Shown piece by piece: positions 16,123 through 32,000 of a stretch of 32,000 bases of DNA. The stretch comes from Crocosphaera subtropica ATCC 51142. Lineage in GTDB: Bacteria > Cyanobacteriota > Cyanobacteriia > Cyanobacteriales > Microcystaceae. The notes under the pieces are model-generated. The model saw only the letters and a list, made by a program, of their open reading frames with translations, was not told where the DNA came from and searched no databases. A program made the translations under genes and the position numbers. The stretch is taken from contig NC_010546.1 in assembly GCF_000017845.1 (NCBI RefSeq), positions 4,200,001 to 4,232,000 on the forward strand, read 5' to 3'. The stretch's first letter is position 1. Each line of letters starts with the position of its first letter.

Positions 16123-18192
16123 TTAACGACGAAGGCTAAACATTATGTCACGGGGAAAAGTAGTAGGATTACCATTACTTTCTAACCGTCGACGTAACTG
16201 TTGTAATTTAGCTTCTTGTTGAGGTAAATTATCCACCAATTGATAGGGTAAAATACTTTGTTCTAGGGAAAAACTAGCTAAGGTTCCGGCTGCAGCACCC
16301 ACGGACCATTCAAACCCATGTACCCGATAAGCAGCCGCCGCAATGTGACTGGTGGCAATACTTTTCCCTGATACGATCAAATTATCCACTTTTTGAGGAA
16401 TTAAAGCCCTTAAAGGTATTTGTGCCGGATGAGCCCCACCGTGAGCAACACGAACCCCTGGACGTTCGCGGTTACCACGCTTTTCTGGGGGAGATAAGGC
16501 CATACAAGGATGAAAATCAATCATATAGTCAGCGACTCCCACCGAGTCAGGATAAACGGTTGCATGGGTGCGTCGGGTGATCATGTACGACGGGCGATCG
16601 TTAGCAGTGACAAATTTGGATTCTAAATCCGCAATAGTTGACCACACCAACTGATACATGGGACGAGGTAAAGAGGTGCGATAAAAATCATGCCAATAAT
16701 CTTTAGTGGAAATATCGATCTCGTTAATCGCAAACCCTTGAGGATGATCGTAAGAGGATCTACCGATAATGCGTCTCCCCTCCCGAATATAAGGGTATTT
16801 GGATAACCCGTGACTGGTTCCCATAGGAGAATCTAACCCTTGCAAGAAGCGATGATTCGGATGAGGCCGTTTAACCCCATAGCCTAAACGAGAATCAGTA
16901 GTACCTGCAACTAACCAATAGTAAAACCCCTGAGAGAGTTCTTCTCCTTTGCGTAAGGCTTCTGTACGGAGTCCCCCTTTCCAACCGTCGGGTTCGAGTT
17001 GTCCCGTTTGTTCGAGTTGTCTACGACTATAAACCAAGTTATCTTGAGCGGTTCCGGGACGGTAATCATTCCCCCATACCCAGTTTTGCATGGAAATATC
17101 GCCGGGGGTGGGTTCATGAACTTTCATCGGCCCCACTCTGACAAATTTGCCTTGTTCGTTACTCCAGATGCGTCGATAGGTAAACACTAAGTCAAAATAG
17201 GCCATTCTGCGATCGCTATCATAACCGTAGTAGGGTTCGTACTGTTCATAAAAGGAGGGTTTCGTCTGGGGTTGGGGGGTGGCGGTTCGTTCCATTGCAA
17301 AGGGGTAGGTAAACCCTTGCACACAGTAGGGATCGCCATTTTCGGTGGGAGAAGAGGGGTTAAGATGACTACGGGGGTCCAGTCCTAAACGGTAGGGAAC
17401 GTCTGCTAAAGCGACGATTTCACCGGTTTCTGTGGCTTCTATGACAAACCAGTCGGTGGGACTTCCTTTTTTAGATTTGGACTCGAAGCGGATAATTTTC
17501 TTGTTAAACCGTTGAGAGTTTTCGTAGCTATAAGCATCTTCAATGGTTTTAGAAAGGGGATCTTTGTTGAGGTGACCGGTTCCAGTTTTCGGGCTATGTT
17601 GAATAGCGATCGCACTTTTGATTAATTTTCCATCTTCACTTAATTCTACGTCTTTAATCACCGTAGAAGGAAACCATTTTAATGTGCCTCTTCCCCATTG
17701 TTGGGCTTCTCTTAATTGCTGATATAATAACTGATGACCATGATAGGGAAGAAAACAACTTTCACTAACCCAACATTCTCCAGGGTTTTGTCGATTGTAG
17801 AGACGGGCAATATTTCTTCTTAACGTATTGTATCCTCTGGGAAAATGTTGTTGCGATCGCTGTCGTTTTCCTTCGTCTAAAGCCGAGGTTCCTTGTGACG
17901 AAATTTGTCCCCCAACCCAATCGGTAATTTCGGTTAAACAAACGGTTTTTCCTGCCAATAAGCCCTCGTAAGCTGCAGCCGAACCTGCTAACCCCGCCCC
18001 AACGATTAATATATCACAATTAACGGTTTCGTGAGGATTACGGGAATTAGCTGACATAGGTAACGTTGTTTCTAAGCTAATTATTCCTAAAAATAAACTT
18101 GTCAAAATTCGTTTTAACGTTTTTTTTTCATGGGTTCTTTTTGGTGACAATAATTTCCCAGATTTTTCCTGATGTTTCCTGAGTCTTCCCAT
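16123..18192 (-). CDS. FAD-dependent oxidoreductase (FAD_oxidored/PF12831-like) with a basic, hydrophobic N-terminal signal-anchor-like extension
   Basis: The dinucleotide-binding motif DILIVGAGLAGSAAAYE is followed by DWVGGQ. The N-terminal 45 aa are Lys/Arg-rich and then hydrophobic (ILTSLFLGIISL). The real start could be an internal Met (MSANS...). Three HIP1 sites lie inside the gene, which suggests native DNA. Confidence 0.8.
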   Translation of the reverse strand: MGRLRKHQEKSGKLLSPKRTHEKKTLKRILTSLFLGIISLETTLPMSANSRNPHETVNCDILIVGAGLAGSAAAYEGLLAGKTVCLTEITDWVGGQISSQGTSALDEGKRQRSQQHFPRGYNTLRRNIARLYNRQNPGECWVSESCFLPYHGHQLLYQQLREAQQWGRGTLKWFPSTVIKDVELSEDGKLIKSAIAIQHSPKTGTGHLNKDPLSKTIEDAYSYENSQRFNKKIIRFESKSKKGSPTDWFVIEATETGEIVALADVPYRLGLDPRSHLNPSSPTENGDPYCVQGFTYPFAMERTATPQPQTKPSFYEQYEPYYGYDSDRRMAYFDLVFTYRRIWSNEQGKFVRVGPMKVHEPTPGDISMQNWVWGNDYRPGTAQDNLVYSRRQLEQTGQLEPDGWKGGLRTEALRKGEELSQGFYYWLVAGTTDSRLGYGVKRPHPNHRFLQGLDSPMGTSHGLSKYPYIREGRRIIGRSSYDHPQGFAINEIDISTKDYWHDFYRTSLPRPMYQLVWSTIADLESKFVTANDRPSYMITRRTHATVYPDSVGVADYMIDFHPCMALSPPEKRGNRERPGVRVAHGGAHPAQIPLRALIPQKVDNLIVSGKSIATSHIAAAAYRVHGFEWSVGAAAGTLASFSLEQSILPYQLVDNLPQQEAKLQQLRRRLESNGNPTTFPRDIMFSLRR

Positions 18193-18926: not shown

Positions 18927-21900
18927 CTACCCTTTTGTCACTTCGCCAAGTTGCTGCTTAACCCAGGTTCGGTCAAAGATCCATTGATAAATACGATTAG
19001 TAACCCTGAGAAAACCCTGTTGCTTGATGACTAACCCTGACAACAGTAATTCCTTTTCTTCTGGACTGTTAGTAAGAACAACTGCTTCTTGATCTATCAC
19101 TTGTCGGTAGAGTTCTAACAGTTGAATAGATTGTTGACTGTTGAGGATTCGATCGCGGATCGTTCTCAAATGTTCTGGTTCATCTTGGGATTCCCAATTT
19201 TTGATGATTTGCTGGCGTACCAAATTTTCCACCCACTGCGTTTCATCATGAGTAGGGATGGGAGATGGATAATTACGGATCAACTTACACAGTTTTTGAG
19301 TCAGAAAAGGTTGACCATTGGTCCAAGCTAAAACTTCTTTGAGCAACGTTTGTGGGTTGGTAACTTTTTCTGCCAAACCTTGCAATAAGGGTTGAGCTTC
19401 ATGTTCTTTAAAACCCTCTAGTTGAATAGACTGACCGATGTTAAAGGGGGTGGTTTGAATATTGGTAATTAAATTGGAGGGGGTGGTTACACCAAATAGG
19501 GCAAAGGTTAAACGCTGATAAGCCTGATCAAAGCTGCGCTGGTTATAGCAAGAACGAATCAGAGCAAAAAAGTCATTAACAGGGAAATTTAACTCTAAAA
19601 CGTTATCAATTTCATCGATAAAAATAATTAGTGGTTTTGGAGGAATACCATTTTCGATACCAACTTCAACCAGCAGAATGTCTTCAATAAATTGACTGAA
19701 TCGCTGAACAGGAGAAATATCCTTTCGTTCTTTCCACCAAGCTTTAAGATTGACCTTTTTAAGCAACCCAAACCGTCGCCCTAATTCCACAGCCAAACCC
19801 TTATACCACTGCTCAGGGGTAACGTCTTCACTACCAATACGGGTCATATCAACCACCGCACAGCAACTTCCCTCCTGTTGTAGATAGTGCATCATACGAA
19901 CCATCAAGCTAGATTTACCCATTTGTCGGGGATTGAGAACGTAGCAAAATTCTCCTTGTTTTAGGGCTTTATAGAGATAACGATCCGCCGCACGCACCAC
20001 ATAAGTCGGCGCATCCATGGGTAAACTTCCCCCCACCTGATAGTCAAAAGTGGAAGATTGTTCAGCATTTTTGAGTAACTCATTTTCAAAGATCAGTTCA
20101 GCTTGGGTTGCTTTGAGAATATCTAAAGTGTGTGTGAGTTCTTGTGTTCGTTCTAAGACTTTGAGTTCTAGGTTTTGACTGTACTGAGCTATTTCCTGTT
20201 GAGCTTGTTCTAAGGCGATATTTTTGCGGGTGAGTTCTTGGGTAAATTTTGTTCGCTCTGCTTCTGCTCGTCTGCGATCGCTAATGTCAGTAAAAGCCGT
20301 GATGCCATAGAGAATTTGACCTTTCTCATCAAACACGGGACTAGCGGACACCTCTAAGGGGACAATCTGATCCGTTTTACGAACTTCGATATTATCAACC
20401 CTTACCTTTTCTCCGTTTAAAGCTCGCACAATAGGCTGTTCCTCAGTGGGATATAATTCATCAGTGCCTGTAAGATAAGCTTGATAGGTTTGGGTTAATT
20501 GTTCTGTGGTTGTTTCAGCGATGATTCCCTTTCCTAGTATCTGTTGAGCGGTTTGATTAGCATAGTAGGGGTTGCCTTGAGCATTAATAACAAACACCCC
20601 CACAGGCATTGCTTCTAAAATCTGCGTTAAGGTTTTTTTACTCTCCCGTAATGACTCGTACAGTTGAGCATTTTGCAAAGAAATGGCAGCCTGAGCCGAT
20701 AGAAGATTGAGAACTTCTAGATGACTGGCAGTAAAAGCGTCTGTGGTCAGATTATTTTCTAGATAAAGAAGACCTATCAACTTACCTTGATTGAGTAAAG
20801 GCACGCAAAGAACAGATTTAGCATGAGTCGCAGCAATATAAGGATCTCGCATAAATTGTCCCTCCTTAGCTGCATTGTTTAACACTAAATATTGTTGAGT
20901 TCGCACAACATAGTTAACCACAGCCACTGACAAGAGAGGAATTTGGCTATCCGTTTCCGATTGATCAAACGGAATATGTAATCGATTGATTTGGTCATCA
21001 TTAAGGGTTGCTTGAGCTTCTATGATAAAATTGCTTTGCTTCTCCAGAATTAAAAATCCTTGTTGCGCTCCAGCATTTTCGATGGCAATTTTCAATAATT
21101 TAGCAATCAGAGCATCGAGATCAATTTCTTCTGAGATTGCCTGAGATGCCTTCATAATGCTTGCGAGATCAAGGGTTTCAGGCAAAAGATTGGCAGTGGT
21201 TATGATGGAGAAATTGGTTTTTGATGCTTCGGAGGAAAACCACTGGGGATACGTTTGCTCCAATTGTTCAACTTTTCGCTTGGCTCCCCAAATTTGATAG
21301 GCTTGATGGGCTTTCCTCATGTAAAGTTCAGCAAAGTCTATCTTGCTCCGTTCTATCCAAAATTTAGCAGCCAGTTCATTCGCTAAGGCTTCATTTTGAA
21401 TAAACTCATTTTCTTGGGCAGAGGCGATCGCTTGATCGTACAAATTCATCGCCTGATGCCATTGCCCAGAAAGACGAGACATTTCTGCTGCCACTAATAA
21501 ATATTTATGCAGAAAGTTTTCAGGGCAGTTATCAGCCCAAATTTTCATTTGTTGTTGATTTGATTCGAGTTGCTGCCAATATCTTTGTTGTTCTTCTACA
21601 GAAACTTGAGGATAACAAGCGATTCGAGTGAGGGAATCATAAAAATTGTGTTTTGCAATGGAAATCGTGCCTGGAATATAGTCAAACCATTGTCCAGCTT
21701 GATCTAAAAGGGTTAAGGGGATGGGTTGGTCGTATAAGTAGAGAACTTGGGCTTTAAAGATGTAATATAGGCAAATGGCCGCAGTGGTTTGTTGTTGTTG
21801 GCACGTCTCTAAAAAGGGGATTTCCGCTATTTCTGCTATTTCAAAACAGGCCTCTGTTCCCTGCAAACCCATTAAATTCTCAATCAAAATCTTGGCACTT

Positions 21901-24900
21901 AAAATACAATTAACTGCCCACTGATTTTGACTTTCTTGGGTAAACAACAGACTGCGTTCAACTTCTTTAAGAAGACTCTCTAAGGGTTTCCCTTGATAAA
22001 TAAGATTATATAAATTGTAAGTCAGGCTATAGCCAACTGGTTGTAGATCCCCGATTTTCAAACCGGCTTCAATGCCCTCAATATTAACTCGTTCAGAGAG
22101 TTTAATATGCTTCAACCAGGGCATAATCATACCCGCGTGAAATTGTCGTGTTGCTACCTGAGAAGTCGAATCGTTATATTTATCCGCTAGTTTGACACTT
22201 AACGCCCCATGTTCGTAAGCCAAGGCATAGTTGTGCAACCGATGGGAATTGATGACCCCAAAACAAGAATAACCCACTGGAGATTTGTCCATATGACCAT
22301 ATTTGAGACTCAAATTGGTCATTTTCGTGCCAACAACGTACATCAGGGCTGGATTGAGAATCCAGGCGGCCGGCAGAATACGAATTAAAATTTTATAAGC
22401 AGCCTTTTTCTCTGGAATCACCATTTGATGATGATCATACAATTCACTAACGTTAATGGGTTCGACGGTTTTTTCGTAGTCTGCTAGTTCCGCCGCAAAA
22501 GCTGCTTCTAGGTTTTCTTTGGGGAGATCAATATTCAAGTCTTGTAAAGCTTGGCGACCTAATTCAACGGCCTCGGCTAATTTTCCTAACAGGGTAGATT
22601 GAATAATTTGTAAATAATAAAATTCTGTGCGATCGAGGATGGATTGCGCTTTTGTCAATGCTGTTTCAATTAAATGCTGAGATTCGCTTAAATTACCATT
22701 GAGATATTCCACCTCTGCCAGTTCTTTATAAAGGATTAAAGACATTTCGTACTTTTTTTGCCAAATGTCTCCTGGAAACTCGGTTTTAGCCATCCTTAAA
22801 TAATAGTTGGCCGCAGCGTAGGCGGTAGATTCTTTGGCTTTTTGACCGGCTTGTAAGTTTAATTGGGCTAAGGTAATTTTTTCAGTTTCATCCTCAATCA
22901 ACTCTCGTCCTTGATTGAGATGATCAACAATAGCAAAGAGTTCTTCTGTGTCTTTTTCATTCATGCTATCCCGTAACAGTCTGCCAATGGAGAGATGAAC
23001 GGCTGTTTTTTGCCGATCATCAATGAGAGCATAGGCTGCTTGTTGAACTCGGTCATGAAGAAACTTATAATTTTCAATGAATAAATCAGCCGTAATGGGA
23101 TCGTCTGGGGTGATTTCCAACGCTGATAGGGGTTGAATTAAGCCTAACTGAATGGCTGACAAAAGAGCGTCAAAGGTTTCAGAATGTGATGTTTGGCTGA
23201 TAATTGAGAGGATTGAGATGGTAAAGCGATCGCCAATACAAGCAGCTAAACGTAGGGTTTGCTGTGTTTTCTGGGGCAGTTTACTTAGTCGTGTAATCAT
23301 CAAATCCACCACATTTTTGGTAATCCCCGAATTGGCAATTTGGGTTAGATCCCATTGCCATCGTTGTTTGTGTGGGTCAAAGGTAAGAAAATTTTCTTGG
23401 TGAATGGTTTTGAGAAATTCGTTAATAAAAAAAGGATTCCCTGACGTTTTTTCTAACACTAATGCGGCCAGAGGCGAAACCGTTGAGCGATCGCAATAAA
23501 GACTGTCTGCTAATAACTGCTCAATTTCCTCAAGATTTAAGGGATCTAAAACGATATCGTTGATGATCATCCCTTGTTCGCGCAAACGATTGATCATGAT
23601 CATCGTAGGATGATGAAGACTCACTTCATTGTCACGATAGGCCCCCAACAAAAGCAGATGGTCTAGGTTGCCTTGAGTCATGATAAACTCAATTAAATTC
23701 AAACTAGCAGTATCAGCCCATTGTAGGTCATCGAGAAAAATAACCAGAGGATGGTCTGCTTGGCAAAAAACACCAATAAACCGTTGGAACACTGCTTTAA
23801 AGCGATTTTGTGCTTCTGTTGCCTCTAAGGATGACACCGCAGGTTGAGAACCGATAATTTTACTCAGTTCAGGAATAAAGTCAATCATCACTTGACCATT
23901 ATTTCCCAAAGCTTCTAGCAGCTTGTTACGCCATAGACTGAGGTTTGTCTCACTTTCTGTTAGTAGTTGATTGATCAGGGATTTGAAGGCTGAAATAACA
24001 GCATCATAAGGAATATTGCGTTTAAATTGATCAAATTTTCCAGCAATAAAGTAGCCCCGTTGTTGGGTGATCGGTTTATAAAGCTCTCGAATGAGAACAG
24101 ATTTGCCAATGCCAGAATAACCGCTAACCAGCAACATTTCCACCTGCTGTTGTTGCGTTTCTGATGCCATCACCCGTTGAAAGGTGGAGTATAATGTGGC
24201 TAATTGTTCCTCTCTACCGTAAAGTTTTTGGGAAATTGTTAATTTAGGGAAAACATCGTAACAGATGAGCGGAAATTCTGCAATTTCTCCCGTTTGCTGT
24301 AGTTGAGTTAGACAGTGTTCTAAATCCGCCTTGATTTGCAATGCTTCTTGGTATCGCTCCTCAGCCATTTTTGCCAGCAATTTCATCACAATATTAGATA
24401 CGGCTTTGGGAATGGTTGAATCCACGTCGTGAGGGGGAATGGGGGGTTTAGCCAAGTGAGCATGAACCAATGCTAAAGCATCTTTGGTGTCAAAGGGTAG
24501 CTGATGGGTGAGAAGCTGATAAAAGGTAATACCAAGGGAATAAAAATCAGTGCGATAATCAAGGGCGCGATTCATTCGCCCCGTTTGTTCTGGAGAAATA
24601 TAGGGTAAGGTTCCTTGAATAACTCTGGGATTTTGAAGGGTTGGGGTTTCACGGGTAAATTGGGTTGAGATGCCAAAATCAATAATTTTCAGTTGTTTTG
24701 TATCTGAGTTATAAATAATATTAGAGGGATTAATATCTTTATGAATGACATTGGCTGTGTGGATGTCATGAAGGGTCTGGGAAATCTCAATAGCGATGGC
24801 CAGAAAGTCCGAAAGCTTGAACCTTTGTAAACCCATTAACCGATCTAAGGACTTGCCCCCAAAATCTTCTAAAACAATGGCAAGAGTATTATTATAGGGC

Positions 24901-25118
24901 AATAAATCATAAGCTTTGATCACCCCGTCACTGTTAAAAGAACGGGTAATTTTATACTCTTGTTTATATCGAGTTAACTCTGAAGGGGTGGGATAATCTT
25001 CTCGAAGAACTTTAAGAACAACGGGTTGTTGACTAAGGTGATGAACAGCCCGATAAACCAGTGAATTCTCACTTTCATAAATCGTGGAAATAATTTGATA
25101 GTCGTTAAAAGCGTTCAT
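18927..25118 (-). CDS. 2063-aa multidomain protein: Ser/Thr kinase-like domain, AAA_16-type P-loop NTPase, long helical/TPR-like region, GAF, PAS, coiled coil, then a C-terminal AAA-like (PF14516-type) P-loop module
   Basis: Kinase motifs are [20 protein letters not shown] and YISPEQ (aa 7-265). AAA_16 has Walker A GYSGIGKS (aa 333-340) and Walker [13 protein letters not shown]. The GAF region ends in [22 protein letters not shown] (aa ~1325-1485). The PAS region has [22 protein letters not shown] (aa ~1493-1612), followed by a coiled coil at aa ~1613-1690. The AAA-like module has [17 protein letters not shown]...NPRQMGKSS...LIIFIDEID (aa ~1692-2055). Confidence 0.9.
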
Positions 25119-25172: not shown

Positions 25173-26255
25173 TTATTCCAAACCATAAAAACGAACAGGA
25201 TTATCCCAGAGGATCTTTTGAACAATTTTCTGAGAAAGTTGATCTTCAAGGGCAACCACTTCTGCCATGATTCTTGGTTTATGATCCATATGAGGGTAGT
25301 CAGAACCAAACATTAAATTATCTGAGCCAATATATTCAATTAGTTTAGCGAGATAAGGCTCAGATGGCTCGCAGGCAATAAAACACTGACGACGAAAATA
25401 GTCAGATGGCTTCATTTTTACTGTGTTTGCCACTTCCCATTGCAGATCCTCATACTCACGATCAAGTCGCCATAACCAGTAGGGTAGCCAACCACAACCG
25501 GACTCAAGTAAGCCAATTTTTAAGTTCGGATGCCGTTCTAAAACCCCCCCTTCGATTAACGCCAACAATGCCATCATTTGTTCCATGGGATGAGAACAAG
25601 CGTGGAGAGCAAAGCGCGTGTTAAAGCGATCGCTACCTGTTGTCGGTAAACGAGAATGGGTCCCTTCATGGATACTGACAGCAATGCTTAATTCTTCACA
25701 TTTAGCCCAAAATGGCTCATAGGCAGGGTCACTCAATAATCGACCTTTAACGGGATTGGGACGTAAAAAAACGGCTTTCCAGCCAAAATCAGCAATTCGC
25801 TGCAACTCTATAACCATTTCTTTGGGGTCATGGAGATTCACAACCCCCACCCCTCGAAGGATTTGGGGATTATAGGCACAAAAGTCGTATAACCAAGAAT
25901 TGTAAGCCCGAACAAAAGCACCCACCAGTTGGGGTGACAGGGTGTCCACTGCACTAATCCAGGAGAAGGTCGTAGGATAGAGGAAACAAAGGTCAACCCC
26001 CATCTGCTGCATGGCCCGCACCTGAGACTCGGCATCAAAGTGATTGAGCCAAGATAAGGGATACGCTTGACTGACTTGTTGATGGCCGGTTTCTCGGAGA
26101 CGTTGAGAATATTTGTGTAGGAGGGATTTCCCTTTGATTGTTAGATCGGGTGATGGTGCAAACCCTTTAAATGAGGGTTCGAGATACTTTTCCCACATAT
26201 CAGGGGGTTCGACCACATGGGAATCTGCATCGATAATACGATATTGATCAAGCAT
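25173..26255 (-). CDS. Metal-dependent amidohydrolase-2 family enzyme (ACMSD/LigW-type hydrolase or decarboxylase fold)
   Basis: N-terminal IIDADSHVVEPPDMW (HxH-like metal ligands in the DxH variant typical of PF04909), internal SIHEG and a C-terminal FGSDYPHMDH. Confidence 0.8.
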   Translation of the reverse strand: MLDQYRIIDADSHVVEPPDMWEKYLEPSFKGFAPSPDLTIKGKSLLHKYSQRLRETGHQQVSQAYPLSWLNHFDAESQVRAMQQMGVDLCFLYPTTFSWISAVDTLSPQLVGAFVRAYNSWLYDFCAYNPQILRGVGVVNLHDPKEMVIELQRIADFGWKAVFLRPNPVKGRLLSDPAYEPFWAKCEELSIAVSIHEGTHSRLPTTGSDRFNTRFALHACSHPMEQMMALLALIEGGVLERHPNLKIGLLESGCGWLPYWLWRLDREYEDLQWEVANTVKMKPSDYFRRQCFIACEPSEPYLAKLIEYIGSDNLMFGSDYPHMDHKPRIMAEVVALEDQLSQKIVQKILWDNPVRFYGLE

Positions 26256-26355: not shown

Positions 26356-28650
26356 TTACATCCACAACGGAAAGGGATTAAGTTCATTTTCTTTAAGAGA
26401 CTTTTCTAACCAGCCTAATTGTACTGGAATTTCATAAAGTCGTCCTGGCCCTAAACGTTTCCAGAAATGACGCAATCCAGGAACAACAACTTTGACGACT
26501 TTCAAACCAATATCAGGACGAGTCTGATCAAGCACTAACAGTTCCATCCCCTTTTGCTCAAGGATTTGCTGACAGGTTGTAATATCTTCGAGTAAATCCT
26601 CCCTTCCCCATGACAAATAATCAGAATAACGTCTTGATGAAACTGTTTCATTGGGTATGAGATAGGACTGATTTTCAAGAGTCGCTGTTTTCCACCACTG
26701 AATGGCTATGTGAGACATGGAAGAAGGATAACGGGTAGTGCCATCAAGATTAGCCGTTAAAACAGCTTGAAGAATTTTATTCATGCCGTTTAAAGCTCGA
26801 TAAATACCTATTTTGGGGTCGAAATGAGTACCAAAGTCAAAAATAATATCCTCTACCTCTCGATCAGTTCTGCGGGAAATCGCAGCAAAGGTGGGAATCT
26901 TCAAATCACTGGTCAGGTCTAAAACCCAGAACTCTCGATGAAGGGTTTTATAGTAATCTTTGAGGGCTTCAAAATAAGGTTCGTTAAAACTATCTAAATC
27001 AACCTTCGGTTTCTTCAGGCGATTGTACCACCACAATGCAGCACCATCTCGCTCGATTAACTCCATCAAACCTTGTAATATAGCTTCTTCAATGGTATTA
27101 CCGGCTGCACAGCCATTGGAATCTGCCCAACAATCGGGTTGAGAGGGAATAGGATAGCCATAATAGCAGTAAGCAGTGGGCAAATACTTAAACGTCTGAC
27201 TGGTTAAAGACCAAAGGGGTGTCCAGTCGATTTCTCTTTCCTCATCAAAAGGTTCAGGAACCCGTTGATACCAATCTAAAGACCGAGAATAGTTAGTATT
27301 CCATTCTTGGCGAGTTTGATATTGAGTTAAGCTAAAGTTCAAACAGGCATTGGGATGAATGGTTGGATGTTCCATTTGCTGATAACGACCTTTTTGCCTG
27401 ATTTCATCCCCTTGAAAGACACCAGAATATCGCTCAATGGCTTCACAAAAACTACTACATTTGGCTTGTTGGTCGGTTCTAGCGGTTCCCCCACTTCTGC
27501 CAATCATGTATTCTCGTAAAGCATAGAGATCATCAAAGATAGTCGCAAAATGATGTTGAGCGACGTAAGTATGAGTTAAACCCGTTGCCTCTTGATGAAT
27601 CTTGGAGAGTTCTCGAACAACCCCCGTGATGGGACTAATATGGTGTTGATACTGCTTCAGGGTTGCTTCTGGGGAAAATATGCGATCGCCTCCATCCCCA
27701 AAAAAGGTTTTTTTGCGGTGTCCTAAAAGAAGGGGTAAGGGCTTACTATTCAATTGTCCTATCAAGTTTTTACCACAGTCAGGACATTGAGGACGCTTAA
27801 CAACCTGATGATTTTTTGTTTCGAGAGAAAGGGTATCATGAGTGACTAAAACCCCCTCTAACCGCTTATTTTCTCCTGTTACAATCCATTTAAACACTTC
27901 TGTAGCTGCCATTCCTAAGGCGGTTTGCACTGTTGCAGTAAGGGAAGCTAGGGGAGGAGTCAGAGGGGTGGCAAGATTCTGTCTTTGTTGAATAAATGCT
28001 TCTACCGGTCTATTTTCTCGTAAACGCTGAGCCAAGCATTGCCAACAAGCTGTTTTGTGGGGTTGGAAGATTGGCCCAATCCAAACTAGGGTTCCGACGG
28101 GTTTGACTAACATCCACGGTTGGGATGACTCAAGGGTTTGTTGATTATAAATATCAAGACCTTTTTCTAAGTAATCATCGCTCAAGACAATTTCAATATC
28201 TCCCTTCTCAGCAATTTGAATATGTAAGGATTCTAGAGCATTTTTGAATTGAGCAATGGGTAAATTAGAAACAAAGGACTTAACTGCTACTGTGGTGGTT
28301 TGTAATCGCTGATAAGCTTCTGTGGAATCAATGTTCAAATGGTCACAAAAAATGGCCAAGTCAGGTGGCAGAATTTCTTCCTCTTTGACAATGTAACCCT
28401 TCTGTTCTAACTGCATTAAAACATAGTGAACTTGAGCCAGCATTAACATTTCTTCTTGCTCAGAGGTTGATTCTGTAAACAAATCAGAGCGAATTTTTTC
28501 GATAATTTCCTCAACCGTATGATGTTCATCCAGTAAAGGGATTAATTGCTGCAATAAAGGGTTACTTACAAAAGAGGAATTTCTTTCTGTTAACAAAAAG
28601 ATGACTTCTGCTGCTACATTTTCAATGCGAAAACAAGCTTTAAATTTCAT
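26356..28650 (-). CDS. Fused E1-like (docking/leader-binding) and YcaO cyclodehydratase, with PatD/TruD-like architecture
   Basis: The N-terminal part has VLSDDYL...QPWMLVKPVG..WIGPIF.P..TACWQCLAQRL plus RPQCPDCG. This gives a four-Cys site: C202/C205 at nt 28036-28047 and C289/C292 at nt 27775-27786. The YcaO part has SFCEAIERYSG and SNGCAAGNTIEEAILQGLMELIERD. The C-terminus has LVLDQTRPDIGLKVVKVVVPGLR and a terminal NPFPLWM proline-containing tail. Confidence 0.9.
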   Translation of the reverse strand: MKFKACFRIENVAAEVIFLLTERNSSFVSNPLLQQLIPLLDEHHTVEEIIEKIRSDLFTESTSEQEEMLMLAQVHYVLMQLEQKGYIVKEEEILPPDLAIFCDHLNIDSTEAYQRLQTTTVAVKSFVSNLPIAQFKNALESLHIQIAEKGDIEIVLSDDYLEKGLDIYNQQTLESSQPWMLVKPVGTLVWIGPIFQPHKTACWQCLAQRLRENRPVEAFIQQRQNLATPLTPPLASLTATVQTALGMAATEVFKWIVTGENKRLEGVLVTHDTLSLETKNHQVVKRPQCPDCGKNLIGQLNSKPLPLLLGHRKKTFFGDGGDRIFSPEATLKQYQHHISPITGVVRELSKIHQEATGLTHTYVAQHHFATIFDDLYALREYMIGRSGGTARTDQQAKCSSFCEAIERYSGVFQGDEIRQKGRYQQMEHPTIHPNACLNFSLTQYQTRQEWNTNYSRSLDWYQRVPEPFDEEREIDWTPLWSLTSQTFKYLPTAYCYYGYPIPSQPDCWADSNGCAAGNTIEEAILQGLMELIERDGAALWWYNRLKKPKVDLDSFNEPYFEALKDYYKTLHREFWVLDLTSDLKIPTFAAISRRTDREVEDIIFDFGTHFDPKIGIYRALNGMNKILQAVLTANLDGTTRYPSSMSHIAIQWWKTATLENQSYLIPNETVSSRRYSDYLSWGREDLLEDITTCQQILEQKGMELLVLDQTRPDIGLKVVKVVVPGLRHFWKRLGPGRLYEIPVQLGWLEKSLKENELNPFPLWM

Positions 28651-28653
28651 TAA

Positions 28654-29247
28654 TTAAGATCCTAACAAGAATATTCCCCCTAAATAAGACATATTATCTC
28701 CATCCCCCAAAAAGCTTCGTAATTCTTCTATCCCTAAATCTTTTAAACCATCTGGGAGATCAGGAATTGGTAATATTCCATATTGGCTTGTTTGTAGTGT
28801 GTCTGTGTGGATAAGGTTATTGAGAGGATGTTGCCGAACTTGTATTAATCTATCGGAATCGTTCCACACAGCAAGTAATTCTTCTGACCACAATTGTGCG
28901 TTTTCATCAAATCTGAGTATCCCTGTTAACCCATTTTGCAACAATTCCTGTAATTTACTTTGTTCTAAATTTTCTAATCCACCTAAAGGGTTAGGAATGG
29001 GTAGATAACCCCGATAGGATTCTCCTGGATCTTGTTCTGTTTGCTCTCGAATTGTTTCGGCAGCATCGGCTGTATCAACATCAACATCAACGTTAGTATA
29101 TTGACTATTTGCTAATCTAATTATTGTCGTTTTTGGATCTTTTCTAAGATCATTTAACACCTGTTCGTTTCCCCAAGCAAAGGCTAAGACCCTGCTCCAA
29201 TTCAATCTTGCATCTGCCAAGATATCTATGCCCGATTGTACCATCAT
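28654..29247 (-). CDS. 197-aa protein made of two tandem NHLP-like (nitrile-hydratase-leader-peptide-like) modules; candidate BMA_0021/0022-type precursor or partner protein
   Basis: An internal duplication is visible by eye. Compare W17-x7-W25...YRGYLPIPNPLGGLENL...LQELLQNG with W120-x7-W128...QYGILPIPDLPDGLKDL...LRSFLGDG. A GGGAGA Shine-Dalgarno sits 5 nt upstream of ATGATG. The stop lies 3 nt before the YcaO start codon. Confidence 0.7.
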   Translation of the reverse strand: MMVQSGIDILADARLNWSRVLAFAWGNEQVLNDLRKDPKTTIIRLANSQYTNVDVDVDTADAAETIREQTEQDPGESYRGYLPIPNPLGGLENLEQSKLQELLQNGLTGILRFDENAQLWSEELLAVWNDSDRLIQVRQHPLNNLIHTDTLQTSQYGILPIPDLPDGLKDLGIEELRSFLGDGDNMSYLGGIFLLGS

Positions 29248-29272: not shown

Positions 29273-30979
29273 TTACGGCAGTAGGTTTTTGAGAAAACTA
29301 ATGCTAGGGGCAAAGAAAAATTCTCCCCCCTTATTTTTAACACAACCGTAGAAAGAATAATCCACTTGTTCGTCATTATCCCACTGTTTTGGCCATTGTT
29401 GCGGATCAGGACAGTCTTGAACCCTTTTTGTTGCAGGATGTCCAATAATCGGATCAAGGTATTGTTCCTTACCCGTTCGTGGGAATTTTCTGTCGTCTGC
29501 CCATGCTTGTTGTAGCTCTAAAAACTGAAGACCAATATCCCTTTGAAAGCTAACAAATAGTAATCCGCTAATATTTTTTATTTGCTCTTCTAAGGATTGA
29601 TGACTCACTTTATTTTTTAAATAATCTAGCTGATTAAAACATCGTTCTAAAATACTTAATTGTGAGTTTTGTTGTGTTGTTAAATCATCAAAATAGGTAA
29701 TTCCTGCTCGAAAAATTCGTTTATTTTTTCGATTTTTTTCAAGTTCTTTGTTATCATTATCTCTACGAGGATTAACTTGTCTCATATGGGCGTGTAAGGG
29801 ACATTTGCTGCCATTAGGATCATCGGCATAATTAAAACTATCTCTGTCTTCGTTTTGATTCGGTTGATCGCATAATGCAAGGGGGGTTCCATCTTTAAAT
29901 CGTCCGATAGTTAAGGCATTGGCTCTTTCAATAGTTAAGGCATCAGCTTTTTGGGGATCATCTACCAATTCTCCTAACAGTTCGTCTATTTTTTCTTGAA
30001 AAAGTTCATAATTGGTTTCTAGTTTTTGCCAAACACAATAACTCCCAAAACTATAGGGATTTTGACTCAAAGGATCTTTAACCAGAACTAGGTTAAGACT
30101 AGCTTGAGGATTCCACTGACTCACATCATTACTGTCTTTATACTGGTCATAATCGCATTTAAAAAATAGAGGTTGACTAATACCGTCAGCAAATCCAAAC
30201 GGGCCGATAGGTGGCTTTTTTTTATCATTAGGTTGACACTCTTCTCTCACTACATATCCTGCTTCACAAGTAAGAATCTTACCTAACTGATTTTGTTTCC
30301 ATTCATTAATAATCGTATTAGCCCGATCTTTCAGTTCTTCAACACAATCATGCGCTAGAAAAATTAAGGCATGAACGGGATTTTTGGCATTGCCGATTTC
30401 CCATTTGTCGGGATGATTATACCAATAAGCATCTTTATACCAATCCTTTTCTTCATTAAAGGGATAGCTATCTTTCCAGACCTCGTTCATTGGCTGATCA
30501 AAGTCTCGATCCGAAGGTATACCAACTTTGTCTTGTACAGACACATCATCCTGTTGTTGTTTGCGAGAGCTTGTAAATAAAGAAGAATTCTTAACTTCCT
30601 TTTCTTCAAGAAGAACTTTATAACCTTGATAAGATAAGAAAAAATTTTGACAAAGTTCTCCATAAACAGTTGAAGAAGCATCAATATTATTTTGACGACA
30701 GTTTTCTTTATAATCTTCCGTATCTTGTAATTGTTTTAAAGTAGAGGTAACATGAGGGGCAATTTCACTCCCAATCCATTGTTTTACCTCATTGATTTTC
30801 TCGGCATCAAACTGAATGAAAATATAGAGTGAGTATTGTCGTCCATAATTTTTGAGCATTCCCCCTTGTAAATCTTGCAAGATTTGTTGATAGCCAGAAT
30901 TCAGATTACACGTATCAATTAGCTTATTATTATTAATCAGGTCATCATAGTAGTTCTGGTCATTATTAGGATTGTTCAT
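29273..30979 (-). CDS. DyP-type (dye-decolorizing) haem peroxidase, long form
   Basis: GxxDG motif FGFADGISQP (aa 261-270, nt 30170-30199). Proximal-His region HAHMRQVNPRR (aa 396-406, nt 29762-29794). Also RIFRAGITY, GLLFVSFQRD and GGEFFFAPS. An AAGGAG Shine-Dalgarno precedes the start, and the start overlaps the upstream stop (ATGA). Confidence 0.85.
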   Translation of the reverse strand: MNNPNNDQNYYDDLINNNKLIDTCNLNSGYQQILQDLQGGMLKNYGRQYSLYIFIQFDAEKINEVKQWIGSEIAPHVTSTLKQLQDTEDYKENCRQNNIDASSTVYGELCQNFFLSYQGYKVLLEEKEVKNSSLFTSSRKQQQDDVSVQDKVGIPSDRDFDQPMNEVWKDSYPFNEEKDWYKDAYWYNHPDKWEIGNAKNPVHALIFLAHDCVEELKDRANTIINEWKQNQLGKILTCEAGYVVREECQPNDKKKPPIGPFGFADGISQPLFFKCDYDQYKDSNDVSQWNPQASLNLVLVKDPLSQNPYSFGSYCVWQKLETNYELFQEKIDELLGELVDDPQKADALTIERANALTIGRFKDGTPLALCDQPNQNEDRDSFNYADDPNGSKCPLHAHMRQVNPRRDNDNKELEKNRKNKRIFRAGITYFDDLTTQQNSQLSILERCFNQLDYLKNKVSHQSLEEQIKNISGLLFVSFQRDIGLQFLELQQAWADDRKFPRTGKEQYLDPIIGHPATKRVQDCPDPQQWPKQWDNDEQVDYSFYGCVKNKGGEFFFAPSISFLKNLLP

Positions 30980-32000
30980 TTCTTCTCCTTAATTAAATTT
31001 TCAAAATAACACCGATATAACTCACAACTCACTTTTACTTTATCTTCTACATATTCAATCAATCCTAAACTGCTCAACTTGTAAGCTAAGATGGAATCTA
31101 TTTTAACAGGAATTTCAGAACGAATAAGCGAACCATAGGCGATCATTAAATCAGGCTGTTCTTGCAGTGTTATCCAATGACGTTGCAAATGATAATAATA
31201 AATTCCGTTGGGTTGAGTGGCATTTTTCAGTAGTTCCGTGACGGTAATATTCTCACGACTCAGATGATAGATGGCTAGATGAACCAGTGCCGGGTGTCCT
31301 CCTACCAGATTCATTAATTGTTTGACTTCCTTATCTGGCTTCCAATTGAGTCCGTAACACTGAGCTAACTGTTCGACTTCTTGTTGATAAAAAGGAATTA
31401 AATTAATGGGCAAACCGACATTAAAAGGAGACTGATTCAGTTGCAGAGGAACGTAAATTTCTGTGGAGTGAATCACGATCAAGCGAAGTTTTTGCCAAAC
31501 GGGGAGGGTTTTAGCTTCTTCGTACCAAGACCGTAATAGTAATAAAAAATCTTTGGCTACAGAAGAATACTCAAAAATACAACTGAGTTCATCGATCGCC
31601 AAAACTAAAGGCTGATCAAGTAATTCTAGTACATAGTCCTGAAAATAGGCAGTGCAACTAATTTTACTTCCCAAATCTTGATCCCAATACTCGTTTAGTT
31701 TAGGCTTGATCTCAAGCTGACGGGCAAGGTTAGCGCATAACCATCGGAGAAGTTTATTCAAGTCTTTCAAAATAGCTGCTTCAGCTTGCTCCAAACTAAG
31801 ATTAACGCTGTAATAACCTTGCTGTCTGGCATAGTCTAGATTTCTGAGGAGTAAGCTGGTTTTGCCCATCTCTCTGGGACCTTTGATTCGCACTAAAGCC
31901 CCTGCTTTGATGATTTCTTGATTAATCTGATCTTCAAGATCAGCACGTTTTAGGTAACAAGGAGAGTCTAGGGGGATTGAACCGCTAGGATAGAGTCTAG
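30976..32000 (-). CDS. AAA-like (PF14516-type) P-loop NTPase; the 5' end lies outside the window
   Basis: The track begins at a GTG (31893), but the frame stays open to the window edge. It reads ...RLYPSGSIPLDSPCYLKRADLEDQINQEIIKAGALVRIKGPREMGKTSLL, which aligns with the start of the kinase's C-terminal module ([47 protein letters not shown]). The Walker B-like motif is LVLAIDELS. Confidence 0.8.
   Translation of the reverse strand, partial: RLYPSGSIPLDSPCYLKRADLEDQINQEIIKAGALVRIKGPREMGKTSLLLRNLDYARQQGYYSVNLSLEQAEAAILKDLNKLLRWLCANLARQLEIKPKLNEYWDQDLGSKISCTAYFQDYVLELLDQPLVLAIDELSCIFEYSSVAKDFLLLLRSWYEEAKTLPVWQKLRLIVIHSTEIYVPLQLNQSPFNVGLPINLIPFYQQEVEQLAQCYGLNWKPDKEVKQLMNLVGGHPALVHLAIYHLSRENITVTELLKNATQPNGIYYYHLQRHWITLQEQPDLMIAYGSLIRSEIPVKIDSILAYKLSSLGLIEYVEDKVKVSCELYRCYFENLIKEKK

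What the first reader, a model, noticed from the sequence alone, without database searches (positions are those of the whole stretch)
28654..29247. Cys-free 197-aa protein built from two tandem NHLP-like modules, with only a 13-residue tail after the second leader-like junction
Seen in the sequence: module 1 (aa 13-112, nt 28912-29211) and module 2 (aa 116-197, nt 28657-28902) share the same pattern. It starts with W-x7-W in a helical segment (NWSRVLAFAWGNEQVLNDLRKDP versus QLWSEELLAVWNDSDRLIQVRQHP). It continues with Y-x-G-(Y/I)-LPIP-(N/D)-x2-(G/D)-GL-(E/K)-(N/D)-L, then a Leu/acidic run, then a Gly-containing junction (ELLQNG versus SFLGDGD). The similarity even extends past the junction (LTGILRF versus YLGGIFLL). 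The whole protein has no cysteine. The tail NMSYLGGIFLLGS (nt 28657-28695) offers only Ser187 and Ser197 as heterocyclisable residues. Established knowledge: NHLP leaders have a helical N-part, a hydrophobic L-P-x-P segment, an acidic/Leu stretch and a Gly-Gly-type junction before a Cys/Ser/Thr-rich core. Inference: this could be an atypical substrate, for example through backbone chemistry such as amidine or thioamide formation, Ser-only cyclodehydration, or peroxidase-driven Trp/Tyr coupling. The protein carries 4 Trp and 5 Tyr. Alternatively the whole small protein could be the modified product or a scaffold rather than a leader plus core.
Basis: partly seen in the sequence, partly recalled or inferred. 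Interest (0 to 1): 0.8.

Follow-up and report, generated by a model that had tools for sequence, protein, structure and literature searches.

The report
Tandem NHLP-like protein in cyanobacterial YcaO cassette
This small protein of the cyanobacterium Crocosphaera subtropica is a real internal duplication of a nitrile-hydratase-like "leader" fold ending in a short conserved tail, and it sits in a conserved, undescribed six-gene cassette (peroxidase, ring-forming YcaO enzyme, metal enzyme, giant kinase) that probably modifies its last serine.

Summary
The ORF at 28654-29247 (-) encodes a 197-aa, Cys-free protein, annotated only as "unknown". Its two halves are homologous: z = 5.9 in a shuffle test, and E = 1.3e-11 when family profiles of the halves are compared.

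It matches no NHLP model directly (TIGR03793, TIGR03795, Pfam). Profile evidence still places it in the NHLP / nitrile-hydratase-alpha clan.

The 13-residue tail is the best-conserved segment, is disordered in a confident AlphaFold model, and is homologous to the C-terminal end of single-module relatives.

Across 8 further independent cyanobacterial loci the gene order matches the window: AAA_35 NTPase, DyP peroxidase, this protein, LynD/MusD-type YcaO heterocyclase, Amidohydro_2 enzyme, ~2000-aa kinase. Single-module relatives sit in the same kind of cassette. Three divergent two-module loci have no YcaO gene directly after the precursor gene; the two that extend far enough still keep the kinase.

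Most likely mechanism (inferred): the double module is a folded leader or scaffold, and the YcaO cyclodehydrates the terminal Gly-Ser. Oxidative tailoring follows, and the product acts inside the cell.

The closest precedent is the fused NHLP-Burk precursors. I rate it a new variant of a known kind. It is uncharacterised, and the strain is available in culture.

The parts
28654..29247 (-). 197-aa tandem NHLP-clan protein. It is annotated as ACB53448.1 / WP_012362345.1 / UniProt B1WRK7, 'unknown'. By gene order it is the gene next to cce_4099.
28912..29211 (-). Module 1 (aa 13-112). It holds the W-x7-W helix (aa 17-25), LRKDPK, YRGYLPIP (aa 78-85), L(X)4L LEQSKL (aa 94-99) and a former tail, GLTGILR, that has lost its terminal Ser/Thr/Cys. 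It carries a ~30-residue helical insert (aa 47-76) that module 2 lacks.
28657..28902 (-). Module 2 plus tail (aa 116-197). It holds the W-x7-W helix (aa 120-128), YGILPIP (aa 156-162) and L(X)4L LGIEEL (aa 171-176, nt 28720-28737). That motif is the candidate RRE-binding strand.
   Evidence: the L(X)4L role comes from PMC12455567
28657..28695 (-). C-terminal tail NMSYLGGIFLLGS (aa 185-197). It is disordered in the model and is the best-conserved segment. The terminal Gly196-Ser197 (nt 28657-28662) is the proposed cyclodehydration site.
26356..28650 (-). cce_4099, a 764-aa fused winged-helix(RRE) / E1-like / YcaO heterocyclase of the cyanobactin PatD/LynD/MusD type. It starts 3 nt after the precursor's stop codon.
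29273..30979 (-). 568-aa DyP-type haem peroxidase. It has the GFADG motif, and CPLHAHMRQVNPR aligns with the CPFHSHTRKTNPR stretch of AnaPX; this is taken (from general DyP knowledge) to be the proximal-His region. Its stop codon lies 25 nt upstream of the precursor's start.
25173..26255 (-). 360-aa PF04909 (Amidohydro_2) metal-dependent TIM-barrel enzyme. Its nearest solved relatives are PtmU3 and ACMSD-type decarboxylases.
18927..25118 (-). 2063-aa protein with the domain order Pkinase, AAA_16 (STAND-like), GAF, PAS, AAA_35. It is the most constant neighbour of the precursor family.
30976..32000 (-). AAA_35 NTPase gene, cut by the window end. Its stop codon overlaps the DyP start codon by 4 nt (ATGA).

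Best explanation
The gene encodes the substrate protein of a conserved cyanobacterial RiPP-like cassette.

Two tandem NHLP-fold modules pack into one compact helical domain of about 185 residues. This domain acts as a protein-sized leader or scaffold. A flexible, conserved tail of 10-13 residues ending in Gly-Ser projects from it.

The LynD/MusD-type heterocyclase encoded 3 nt downstream docks on the module-2 L(X)4L strand (LGIEEL) through its N-terminal RRE. Using ATP, it cyclodehydrates the terminal Ser197 onto the Gly196 carbonyl, giving a C-terminal oxazoline.

The co-transcribed DyP haem peroxidase and the PF04909 enzyme then tailor the tail oxidatively. One possibility is oxidation to the oxazole followed by decarboxylation of the resulting heteroaromatic carboxylate, or hydroxylation.

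The cassette has no protease or exporter. It is always joined to a giant kinase/STAND/GAF protein, and usually to an AAA_35 NTPase. The modified protein, or a small C-terminal fragment of it, therefore most likely acts inside the cell in a signalling or regulatory circuit rather than as a secreted antibiotic.

Shown: the ORF, the duplication, the clan homology, the tail conservation and disorder, the enzyme identities and the conserved synteny. Inferred: that the protein is the YcaO substrate, the site and type of modification, the roles of the DyP and the PF04909 enzyme, and the signalling role.
For: Duplication.

NHLP-clan homology:
- The A1 profile's two best PDB matches are an NHLP leader (8tb1, E = 0.099) and nitrile hydratase alpha (1v29, E = 0.11), both on the W-x7-W helix.
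- hhalign of A1 against P0046, which passes the TIGR03793 cut-off with 112 bits, gives probability 94.7% and E = 6e-8.
- Relatives found by the profile pass the Pfam NHase_alpha threshold.

Tail:
- Both modules align end to end with 90-120-aa single-module relatives. Those relatives stop right after G-x-F-G-I-(M/L)-R-x-(S/T) or ...WCC-x, so the tail is the ancestral C-terminus of the module.
- The tail is the most conserved segment: 0.71 majority-residue fraction, and 0.80 when the three members P0011, P0013 and P0014, which have no YcaO gene directly downstream, are left out.
- Every two-module member has Ser, Thr or Cys within its last two residues.
- The tail is disordered in a model with pTM 0.83.

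YcaO: it aligns over its full length with MusD, LynD and TruD, at E = 2e-206 to 4e-186. It also matches TIGR03882, 'TOMM precursor leader peptide-binding protein', with 173 bits, and has a winged-helix domain at residues 4-87. NHLP leaders are folded and bind the YcaO RRE through L(X)4L (PMC12455567).

Synteny: the order AAA_35 > DyP > precursor > YcaO > Amidohydro_2 > kinase is kept in the window and in L001/L002, L005, L008/L011, L012, L013 and L014. L015 and L006 match as far as their contigs reach. Single-module cassettes L009, L010, L016, L017 and L020/L021 have the same partners.

Match between enzyme set and tail type: tails with internal Cys come with a ThcOx-type azoline oxidase in L009 (the matching region of L016 lies off the contig). 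Tails ending in Ser or Thr come with Amidohydro_2.

Operon packing: a 4-nt overlap, then gaps of 25, 3, 100 and 54 nt.
Against: - The window protein gives no direct hit to any NHLP-clan model, even at E <= 10.
- Foldseek found no NHLP or nitrile hydratase match for either AlphaFold model.
- Three divergent two-module loci (L003, L004, L007) have no YcaO directly after the precursor; the two long enough to show it (L003, L004) keep the kinase. The protein therefore has a role that does not need the YcaO.
- I know of no demonstrated case of a LynD-type enzyme heterocyclising a residue with a free alpha-carboxylate. That statement rests on my own knowledge, not on a test.
- PF04909 enzymes are not known peptide-tailoring enzymes.
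- There are no experimental data of any kind. No open-access paper mentions cce_4097 to cce_4102.
Confidence: 0.55

Rival explanations
1. The protein is not an enzyme substrate. It is a folded regulatory or adaptor partner of the giant kinase/STAND protein and the AAA_35 NTPase. The YcaO, DyP and PF04909 enzymes are accessory, or act on something else. The conserved tail is a docking peptide, not a modification site.
For: - The kinase gene directly follows the precursor in loci with no YcaO or amidohydrolase (L003, L004).
- The kinase is present in every locus long enough to show it, including the single-module cassettes.
- The whole length of the protein is conserved.
- The fold is compact, with pTM 0.83.
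- There is no protease or exporter in the cassette.
Against: - The YcaO start lies 3 nt after the precursor's stop codon, and a YcaO gene follows the precursor in the window and 8 further independent two-module loci, against 3 without.
- The YcaO is of the type annotated as 'TOMM precursor leader peptide-binding', and no other candidate peptide gene fits in the operon gaps.
- The type of tail residue tracks the tailoring enzyme set: ThcOx oxidase with a Cys tail in L009, Amidohydro_2 with terminal Ser or Thr.
- A heterocyclisable residue is kept at the extreme C-terminus.
Confidence: 0.2
2. It is a classical leader-plus-core RiPP. The double module is only a leader. A housekeeping or distant protease cuts near LGG|IFLLGS or elsewhere in the tail. 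This releases a tiny modified peptide or small molecule, by the same logic as mycofactocin, PQQ or muscoride. The product is exported, or used as a cofactor or signal.
For: - The tail is conserved rather than hypervariable, as in pathways where a peptide yields a cofactor.
- The window tail contains LGG.
- An S9 prolyl oligopeptidase lies next to a Pro-containing tail variant in L004.
- The nearest solved YcaO is MusD, from the pathway to a small linear oxazole peptide (the product description rests on my own knowledge).
- NHLP leaders are normally removed (PMC2887384).
Against: - The Gly-Gly is not conserved. Position 190 is Gly, Ser, Asn or Met.
- There is no C39-peptidase ABC transporter, PatA/PatG protease or other peptidase in the window cassette or in 8 syntenic loci.
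- PF04909 enzymes are not known peptidases.
Confidence: 0.15
3. The chemistry is atypical. The YcaO forms an amidine or thioamide in the backbone, or the DyP cross-links Trp or Tyr side chains of the folded protein. Simple Ser cyclodehydration is not what happens.
For: - A YcaO is paired with an 'amidohydrolase' gene, as in the bottromycin and streptamidine pathways (the parallel rests on my own knowledge).
- A DyP stays next to the precursor even without a YcaO directly downstream (L003, L007).
- All four Trp residues plus Tyr78 and Tyr81 are invariant.
Against: - The YcaO is a full-length LynD/MusD/TruD-type fused heterocyclase, not a stand-alone amidine- or thioamide-forming YcaO.
- There is no TfuA gene or sulfur-donor gene.
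- The amidohydrolase belongs to the PtmU3/ACMSD branch of PF04909, and no bottromycin-pathway amidohydrolase appears among the 47 PDB matches at E <= 0.001.
- The invariant Trp residues are the clan-wide motif 1, also present in bona fide NHLP proteins and nitrile hydratase alpha.
Confidence: 0.07

Closest known systems
NHLP-Burk precursors (TIGR03795, BMA_0021/BMA_0022 family; Haft et al. 2010, PMC2887384)
   Same: - The NHLP-related module is about 108 residues, followed by a suffix of only about 11 residues.
- The modules occur as tandem pairs, fused into one polypeptide in Delftia and Acidovorax.
- They lie next to a fused cyclodehydratase-docking (TIGR03882/TIGR03604) protein.
- There is no Gly-Gly cleavage motif and no dedicated transporter.
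- The heterocyclisable residue sits at the very C-terminus.
- The product is uncharacterised.
   Different: - The window protein does not hit the TIGR03795 model.
- The host is a cyanobacterium, not a member of the Burkholderiales.
- The C-terminus is Gly-Ser, not Cys or Cys-Cys.
- The cassette adds a DyP peroxidase, a PF04909 enzyme, a giant kinase/STAND/GAF protein and an AAA_35 NTPase. None of these is mentioned in the passages of the NHLP-Burk description that I read.
Canonical NHLP leader precursors (TIGR03793; for example the MprE peptides, PDB 8TB1; proteusins)
   Same: - They share the W/Y-x7-W 'motif 1' helix followed by DP(K/E), a Pro-x-x-Pro segment and an acidic/Leu L(X)4L stretch.
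- The leader is folded and protein-like.
- It is recognised by the RRE of a fused YcaO (PMC12455567).
- hhalign against a bona fide tandem NHLP (P0046) gives probability 94.7%.
   Different: - The window protein falls below detection by the model itself.
- It has no hypervariable Cys/Ser/Thr-rich core. The tail is short and conserved.
- It has no conserved GG motif.
- There is no C39-peptidase transporter, LanM, rSAM epimerase or other usual NHLP partner.
Cyanobactin heterocyclase systems (PatD, TruD, LynD, MusD with PatE-type precursors)
   Same: - The YcaO is a full-length homologue (E down to 2e-206) with the same RRE / E1-like / YcaO architecture.
- The Cys-tailed sister cassette (L009) carries a ThcOx-type azoline oxidase.
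   Different: - The precursor is unrelated to PatE.
- There are no PatA/PatG proteases, no recognition sequences and no macrocyclisation.
- There is a single candidate site, at the free C-terminus.
Bottromycin-type C-terminal azole formation (YcaO, amidohydrolase and a haem enzyme that performs oxidative decarboxylation)
   Same: As an analogy only, from my own knowledge: a YcaO-made azoline ends up at the C-terminus, and a haem enzyme then decarboxylates it oxidatively. Here a YcaO, a haem peroxidase and an 'amidohydrolase' are co-encoded with a tail ending in Ser or Thr.
   Different: - The YcaO clade is different (fused LynD type).
- The haem enzyme is a DyP, not a P450.
- The amidohydrolase belongs to the PF04909 PtmU3/ACMSD branch.
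- There is no follower peptide to remove.
- None of this has been tested.

Membership tests
NHLP leader family (TIGR03793) | Score at or above the curated cut-off (50.9 bits) of the TIGR03793 model | tested here: not met
   There is no hit for the whole protein or for either module, even at E <= 10. HMMER's filters may hide very weak hits.
NHLP leader family (TIGR03793) | Homology to the NHLP / nitrile hydratase alpha clan (motif 1, AW-D-x-x-F...L..DP, and a Pro-x-x-Pro segment) | tested here: met
   - The top two PDB hits of profile A1 are NHLP leader 8tb1 and nitrile hydratase alpha 1v29, at E about 0.1.
- hhalign against the bona fide NHLP P0046 gives 94.7% and E = 6e-8.
- Relatives hit TIGR03793 and PF02979.
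NHLP leader family (TIGR03793) | Motif 2, ending in a conserved Gly-Gly cleavage site, followed by a hypervariable Cys/Ser/Thr-rich core | tested here: not met
   LGG is present in the window protein, but position 190 varies (Gly, Ser, Asn, Met). The tail is the most conserved segment, not a hypervariable one. Only the terminal Ser/Thr is conserved.
NHLP leader family (TIGR03793) | NHLP fold (as in PDB 8TB1) | tested here: inconclusive
   The AlphaFold models are confident and all-helical. Foldseek against the PDB returned no match with E < 0.89.
NHLP-Burk (TIGR03795) | Score at or above the curated cut-off (41 bits) of the TIGR03795 model | tested here: not met
   There is no hit. Some relatives hit it weakly: P0046 at 27 bits, P0051 at 25 bits.
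NHLP-Burk (TIGR03795) | Tandem or fused pair of modules of about 108 aa, each with a suffix of about 11 aa and no GG motif | tested here: met
   The family description is in PMC2887384.
NHLP-Burk (TIGR03795) | Adjacent to a fused cyclodehydratase-docking protein (TIGR03882 plus TIGR03604) | tested here: met
   The downstream 764-aa protein scores 173 bits on TIGR03882 (cut-off 36.9) and 251 bits on TIGR03604 (cut-off 219).
NHLP-Burk (TIGR03795) | Cys or Cys-Cys at the C-terminus of one member | tested here: not met
   The window protein has no Cys and ends in Gly-Ser. Cys-ended tails occur in relatives.
Nitrile hydratase alpha subunit | CxxCSC metal-binding motif | tested here: not met
   The protein has no cysteine.
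Cyanobactin pathway | PatA/PatG-type proteases and a PatE-type precursor with recognition sequences | tested here: not met
   No peptidase domain was found in the five operon genes scanned, in the kinase or in nine flanking genes. The YcaO itself is cyanobactin-like.
Substrate of the adjacent YcaO (functional claim) | ATP-dependent -18 Da modification of the tail | not testable with these tools
   This needs co-expression and mass spectrometry.

The most novel reading that the evidence does not exclude
A previously undescribed class of intracellular, protein-sized RiPP-like system. An NHLP-fold protein has its extreme C-terminal residue converted by a cyanobactin-type heterocyclase, a DyP haem peroxidase and a PtmU3/ACMSD-like enzyme into a new terminal heterocycle. 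The modified protein, or a released fragment of it, is the dedicated ligand or substrate of a co-inherited giant kinase / STAND / GAF / AAA_35 signalling machine. If so, RiPP chemistry has been recruited here for cell signalling or conflict sensing rather than for antibiotic production.
Probability: 0.25. Interest if true: 0.85.

Novelty: new variant of a known kind. Interest (0 to 1): 0.66.

Why it matters
- The fused-tandem, short-suffix branch of the NHLP clan (NHLP-Burk) was predicted in 2010. Within the open-access library searched here, none of the three papers that mention it reports a product.
- This cyanobacterial branch offers the same puzzle in a sequenced strain held in a culture collection (Crocosphaera subtropica ATCC 51142) and in Nostoc punctiforme NIES-2108.
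- The substrate is very simple: one conserved terminal Ser.
- The enzyme combination (LynD-type YcaO, DyP peroxidase, PF04909 enzyme) was not found together in any paper of the open-access library searched.
- The strict linkage to a ~2000-aa kinase/STAND protein suggests a function for RiPP-type chemistry in intracellular signalling.
- It would also give a natural protein substrate for a DyP peroxidase. To my knowledge, the physiological substrates of that enzyme class are mostly unknown.

Tried and rejected
- Direct HMM scans of the whole protein (NCBIfam, Pfam, PADLOC) and of each module (NCBIfam) gave no hits.
- Foldseek of the full-length model and of the module-1 model against the PDB gave nothing below E = 0.89. 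Fold-level membership stays open.
- Literature searches found nothing: YcaO + NHLP + amidohydrolase; YcaO + DyP; YcaO + 'ATCC 51142'; locus tags cce_4097 to cce_4102. The AAA_35 / PF14516 search returned only noise. The conflict-systems paper (eLife 52696) does not mention YcaO, peroxidase or nitrile hydratase.
- The alignment A2 was too diverse for the search for related loci. The metagenome scan with A3 confirmed only 2 of 147 pattern matches, because confirmation used the window's module 1.
- I tested whether AnaPX-like DyPs in general sit next to NHLP-like genes. They do not (L018, L019).
- P0025, a DyP-precursor chimera, was considered as Rosetta-stone evidence. I rejected it. It lacks the DyP C-terminal half, which includes the stretch taken to carry the proximal His, and the first ~87 residues of the precursor. 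It therefore looks like a deletion.
- The bottromycin-like amidine reading was rejected on the YcaO clade and the amidohydrolase family.
Full report
**1. Observation**

The ORF at 28654-29247 on the minus strand starts with ATG and encodes 197 residues. It has no Cys, four Trp (residues 17, 25, 120, 128) and five Tyr.

The internal repeat is real:
- Local alignment of residues 1-113 against 114-197 scores 55. Shuffled controls (2000) give 26.7 +/- 4.8, so z = 5.9. None of the 2000 shuffles reached 55, and the Gumbel p is about 2e-4.
- When the two halves are compared as family profiles, hhalign gives probability 97.4% and E = 1.3e-11 over 71 columns. That alignment includes LTGIL / LGGIF beyond the 'junction'.
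- Module 1 carries an extra helical insert of about 30 residues (aa 47-76).

**2. Identity of the sequence**

The window comes from Crocosphaera subtropica ATCC 51142 (formerly Cyanothece 51142).
- The DyP is 100% identical to that strain's 'probable peroxidase'.
- The 197-aa protein is ACB53448.1 / B1WRK7, annotated 'unknown'.
- The YcaO is cce_4099.

**3. Family relationships**

The protein, and each module alone, hit nothing in NCBIfam. That includes TIGR03793 and TIGR03795, even at E <= 10. The whole protein also hits nothing in Pfam at E <= 0.1.

A word-indexed search of 5.8 billion proteins found only 14 relatives. All are 191-219 aa and all have two modules. The alignment A1 shows conservation along the whole length.

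Clan-level homology to NHLP / nitrile hydratase alpha is nevertheless supported:
- The A1 profile's two best PDB matches, out of 177,635 sequences, are an NHLP leader (8tb1, E = 0.099) and a nitrile hydratase alpha chain (1v29, E = 0.11). Both align on the W-x7-W helix.
- An exhaustive profile search of 1.8 billion representatives found 37 proteins. Many are single-module proteins of 90-120 aa.
- Several of these hit TIGR03793 or pass Pfam's NHase_alpha threshold. P0046 is a bona fide tandem NHLP, at 112 bits against a cut-off of 50.9.
- hhalign of A1 against P0046 gives 94.7% and E = 6e-8.

Foldseek did not recover the relationship from either AlphaFold model. The fold-level test is therefore inconclusive.

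**4. The tail**

Both modules align end to end with the single-module relatives (A2). Those relatives terminate immediately after G-x-F-G-I-(M/L)-R-x-(S/T) or after ...WCC-x.

The window's YLGGIFLLGS is therefore the ancestral C-terminus of the module. Module 1's GLTGILRF is the same element, now internal and stripped of its Ser/Thr/Cys.

Conservation and structure of the tail:
- It is the most conserved segment. The majority-residue fraction is 0.71 across all 14 members. It is 0.80 when the three members without a YcaO gene directly downstream (P0011, P0013, P0014) are left out, and the last six residues then reach 0.85. This is the opposite of a hypervariable RiPP core.
- Ser187 is not conserved.
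- A Ser, Thr or Cys within the last two residues is universal in the two-module family: GS, AS, AT, VT, CF, CV, CT, YS.
- In the AlphaFold model (pLDDT 82.8, pTM 0.83) the two modules form one compact helical domain. Residues 185-197 are the only long disordered stretch.

**5. Genomic context**

The window genes form a tight operon on the minus strand:

| Gene | Coordinates | Spacing to next gene |
|---|---|---|
| AAA_35 NTPase | cut at the window end | 4-nt overlap (ATGA) |
| DyP peroxidase | 29273-30979 | 25 nt |
| 197-aa protein | 28654-29247 | 3 nt |
| YcaO | 26356-28650 | 100 nt |
| PF04909 enzyme | 25173-26255 | 54 nt |
| 2063-aa Pkinase / AAA_16 / GAF / PAS / AAA_35 protein | 18927-25118 | (last gene) |

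The same order recurs in:
- Myxosarcina sp. GI1 (L001/L002)
- a Leptolyngbyales MAG (L008/L011)
- Nostoc punctiforme NIES-2108 (L012)
- a Scytonema MAG (L013), with two precursor copies
- [Phormidium] sp. LEGE 05292 (L014)
- a cyanobacterial MAG (L015), as far as the contig reaches
- metagenome contigs L005 and L006 (L006 is short)

Three divergent members have no YcaO gene directly after the precursor:
- L003 has the DyP, the precursor and the kinase.
- L004 has an S9 peptidase, the precursor and the kinase.
- L007 has the DyP, the precursor and the amidohydrolase, and then the contig ends.

Single-module relatives live in the same kind of cassette:
- L010 and L020/L021 (tail ...GILR(C/F)T) have the DyP, the precursor, the YcaO, Amidohydro_2 and a Pkinase / AAA_16 / GAF / SpoIIE protein.
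- L009 (tail ...MRWCYSE) has AAA_35, a ThcOx-type oxidase, the YcaO, the DyP, the precursor, a PhyH enzyme and the kinase.
- L016 (tail ...MQWCCV) has the precursor, PhyH and the kinase. Its contig starts at the precursor, so the upstream genes are unknown.

The giant kinase is thus the most constant partner, followed by the DyP. The YcaO is present in most loci. The remaining tailoring enzyme tracks the tail type.

**6. The enzymes**

*YcaO.* It aligns over its full length with the cyanobactin heterocyclases MusD (E = 2e-206), LynD and TruD. It has the winged-helix RRE (PF21084, residues 4-87) and an E1-like region that scores 173 bits on TIGR03882. This points to ordinary ATP-dependent azoline formation, not amidine or thioamide chemistry.

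*DyP.* It is a genuine class-V-type haem peroxidase. It matches Anabaena AnaPX (5c2i, E = 7e-65) and DyP2 (4g2c). The GFADG motif is present (direct reading). The stretch CPLHAHMRQVNPR aligns with CPFHSHTRKTNPR of AnaPX. From general knowledge of DyPs I take this to be the proximal-His region. AnaPX-like DyPs in general are not in such cassettes.

*'Amidohydrolase'.* It is a PF04909 enzyme. Its nearest solved relative is PtmU3 (6omp, E = 3e-40). By my own knowledge PtmU3 is a diiron hydroxylase. ACMSD-type non-oxidative decarboxylases follow in the list. Nothing in that list suggests a peptidase or a bottromycin-type partner.

No protease, transporter or TfuA-like protein is encoded in the cassette.

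**7. Mechanism proposed (inferred)**

- NHLP leaders are folded. They present an L(X)4L strand to the YcaO RRE (PMC12455567).
- Module 2 has LGIEEL (aa 171-176), 21 residues before the C-terminus.
- I propose that the double module is a protein-sized leader or scaffold, and that the YcaO cyclodehydrates Ser197 onto the Gly196 carbonyl.
- The DyP and the PF04909 enzyme would then tailor the terminal heterocycle oxidatively. One chemically coherent route is oxazoline to oxazole, followed by decarboxylation of the heteroaromatic acid. Hydroxylation is another.
- The product would act inside the cell in connection with the kinase/STAND/GAF protein and the AAA_35 NTPase. The grounds are the missing protease and exporter, the conserved (not hypervariable) tail, and the kinase linkage that survives loss of the YcaO.

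Confidence that the protein is the YcaO's substrate and is modified at the tail is about 0.55. The downstream steps are much less certain.

**8. Rivals**

- (a) The protein is a non-substrate regulatory partner of the kinase (0.2).
- (b) It is a classical leader, with release of a tiny modified C-terminal fragment (0.15).
- (c) The chemistry is atypical: amidine, thioamide or Trp/Tyr cross-linking (0.07).

Rivals (a) and (b) are not excluded by any data here. Rival (b) partly overlaps with the best explanation.

**9. Comparison with known systems**

The closest precedent is NHLP-Burk (TIGR03795), described in Haft et al. 2010 (PMC2887384) and Cox et al. 2015 (PMC4603692).
- Shared features: tandem or fused modules of about 108 aa with suffixes of about 11 aa, no GG motif, no transporter, a position next to a fused cyclodehydratase, and a C-terminal heterocyclisable residue.
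- Differences: the window protein fails the TIGR03795 model, comes from a cyanobacterium and ends in Ser, not Cys.
- The cassette also carries a DyP, a PF04909 enzyme, a giant kinase and an AAA_35 protein. None of these is mentioned in the passages of the NHLP-Burk description that I read.

It works like an NHLP-type TOMM precursor, but it is not a member of either curated family by their own criteria. No paper in the searchable library combines YcaO with DyP, and none mentions these locus tags.

**10. Verdict**

The NHLP-like tandem architecture and the 'scaffold or whole-protein product' alternative hold up. The exotic backbone chemistry is unlikely.
- It is a new variant of a known kind, within a conserved and uncharacterised cyanobacterial cassette.
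- Interest: 0.66.

Noticed in passing
window 18927-25118 (-): The kinase domain of the 2063-aa protein reads [12 protein letters not shown] and IIDFG. The catalytic-loop Lys is replaced by Asn, and the Gly-rich loop is degenerate ([10 protein letters not shown]). It may be an atypical kinase or a pseudokinase.
   Followed up: no
P0025 (447 aa, NCBI/Logan; not in the window): This is a chimeric ORF. The first ~345 aa of a cassette-type DyP are joined in frame to residues ~88-197 of a two-module precursor. The DyP C-terminal half (including the stretch taken to carry the proximal His) and the precursor's N-terminus are missing, so it looks like a deletion that fused neighbouring genes. P0024 (137 aa) is a precursor with an internal deletion.
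   Followed up: partly
L013 10001-10531 and 11451-11999 (Scytonema MAG): There are two tandem copies of the two-module precursor gene, with tails ...GILPLACF and ...GILPLGCV. A DyP gene fragment lies between them, upstream of the YcaO. This is the only YcaO-linked two-module locus whose heterocyclisable residue is a penultimate Cys.
   Followed up: partly
L004 1951-4008 (TARA marine metagenome scaffold): An S9 prolyl oligopeptidase gene lies about 760 bp upstream of a precursor with a Pro-containing tail (...MGIFPTYS). This locus has no DyP, YcaO or amidohydrolase. It hints at proteolytic release after Pro in that subgroup.
   Followed up: no
L009, L016; L010, L020/L021: The cassette has three subtypes.
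- Two-module, tail ...GS: Amidohydro_2, plus AAA_35 at the kinase C-terminus.
- Single-module, tail ...GILR(F/C)T: Amidohydro_2, with the kinase ending in SpoIIE/PP2C and no separate AAA_35.
- Single-module, tail ...WC(C/Y)..: PhyH dioxygenase in both loci, with a ThcOx oxidase seen in L009.
   Followed up: partly
window 14336-15772 (+) and 16123-18192 (-): A B12-binding radical SAM protein and a 689-aa FAD-dependent oxidoreductase lie just beyond the kinase gene. They were not seen next to the cassette in the loci where the called genes beyond the kinase could be read (for example L002, L003, L004, L009). They are probably unrelated.
   Followed up: partly
L018 7603-11419 (Xenococcaceae MAG): An AnaPX-like DyP (31% identical to the window DyP) sits directly after a glyoxal-oxidase-like gene, a possible H2O2 supplier. 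No NHLP-like gene is nearby. The DyP-precursor link is therefore specific to the cassette clade.
   Followed up: no
P0033, P0040, P0041, P0047, P0032, P0051, P0046 (not in the window): Tandem fusion of NHLP-clan modules has arisen repeatedly. Examples are ...FGQMMISGGW...GWMMMCCR proteins, a 284-aa protein with GILKFEN and GILKYT ends, a GILELQ...GILRFT protein, and a bona fide TIGR03793 double module.
   Followed up: partly
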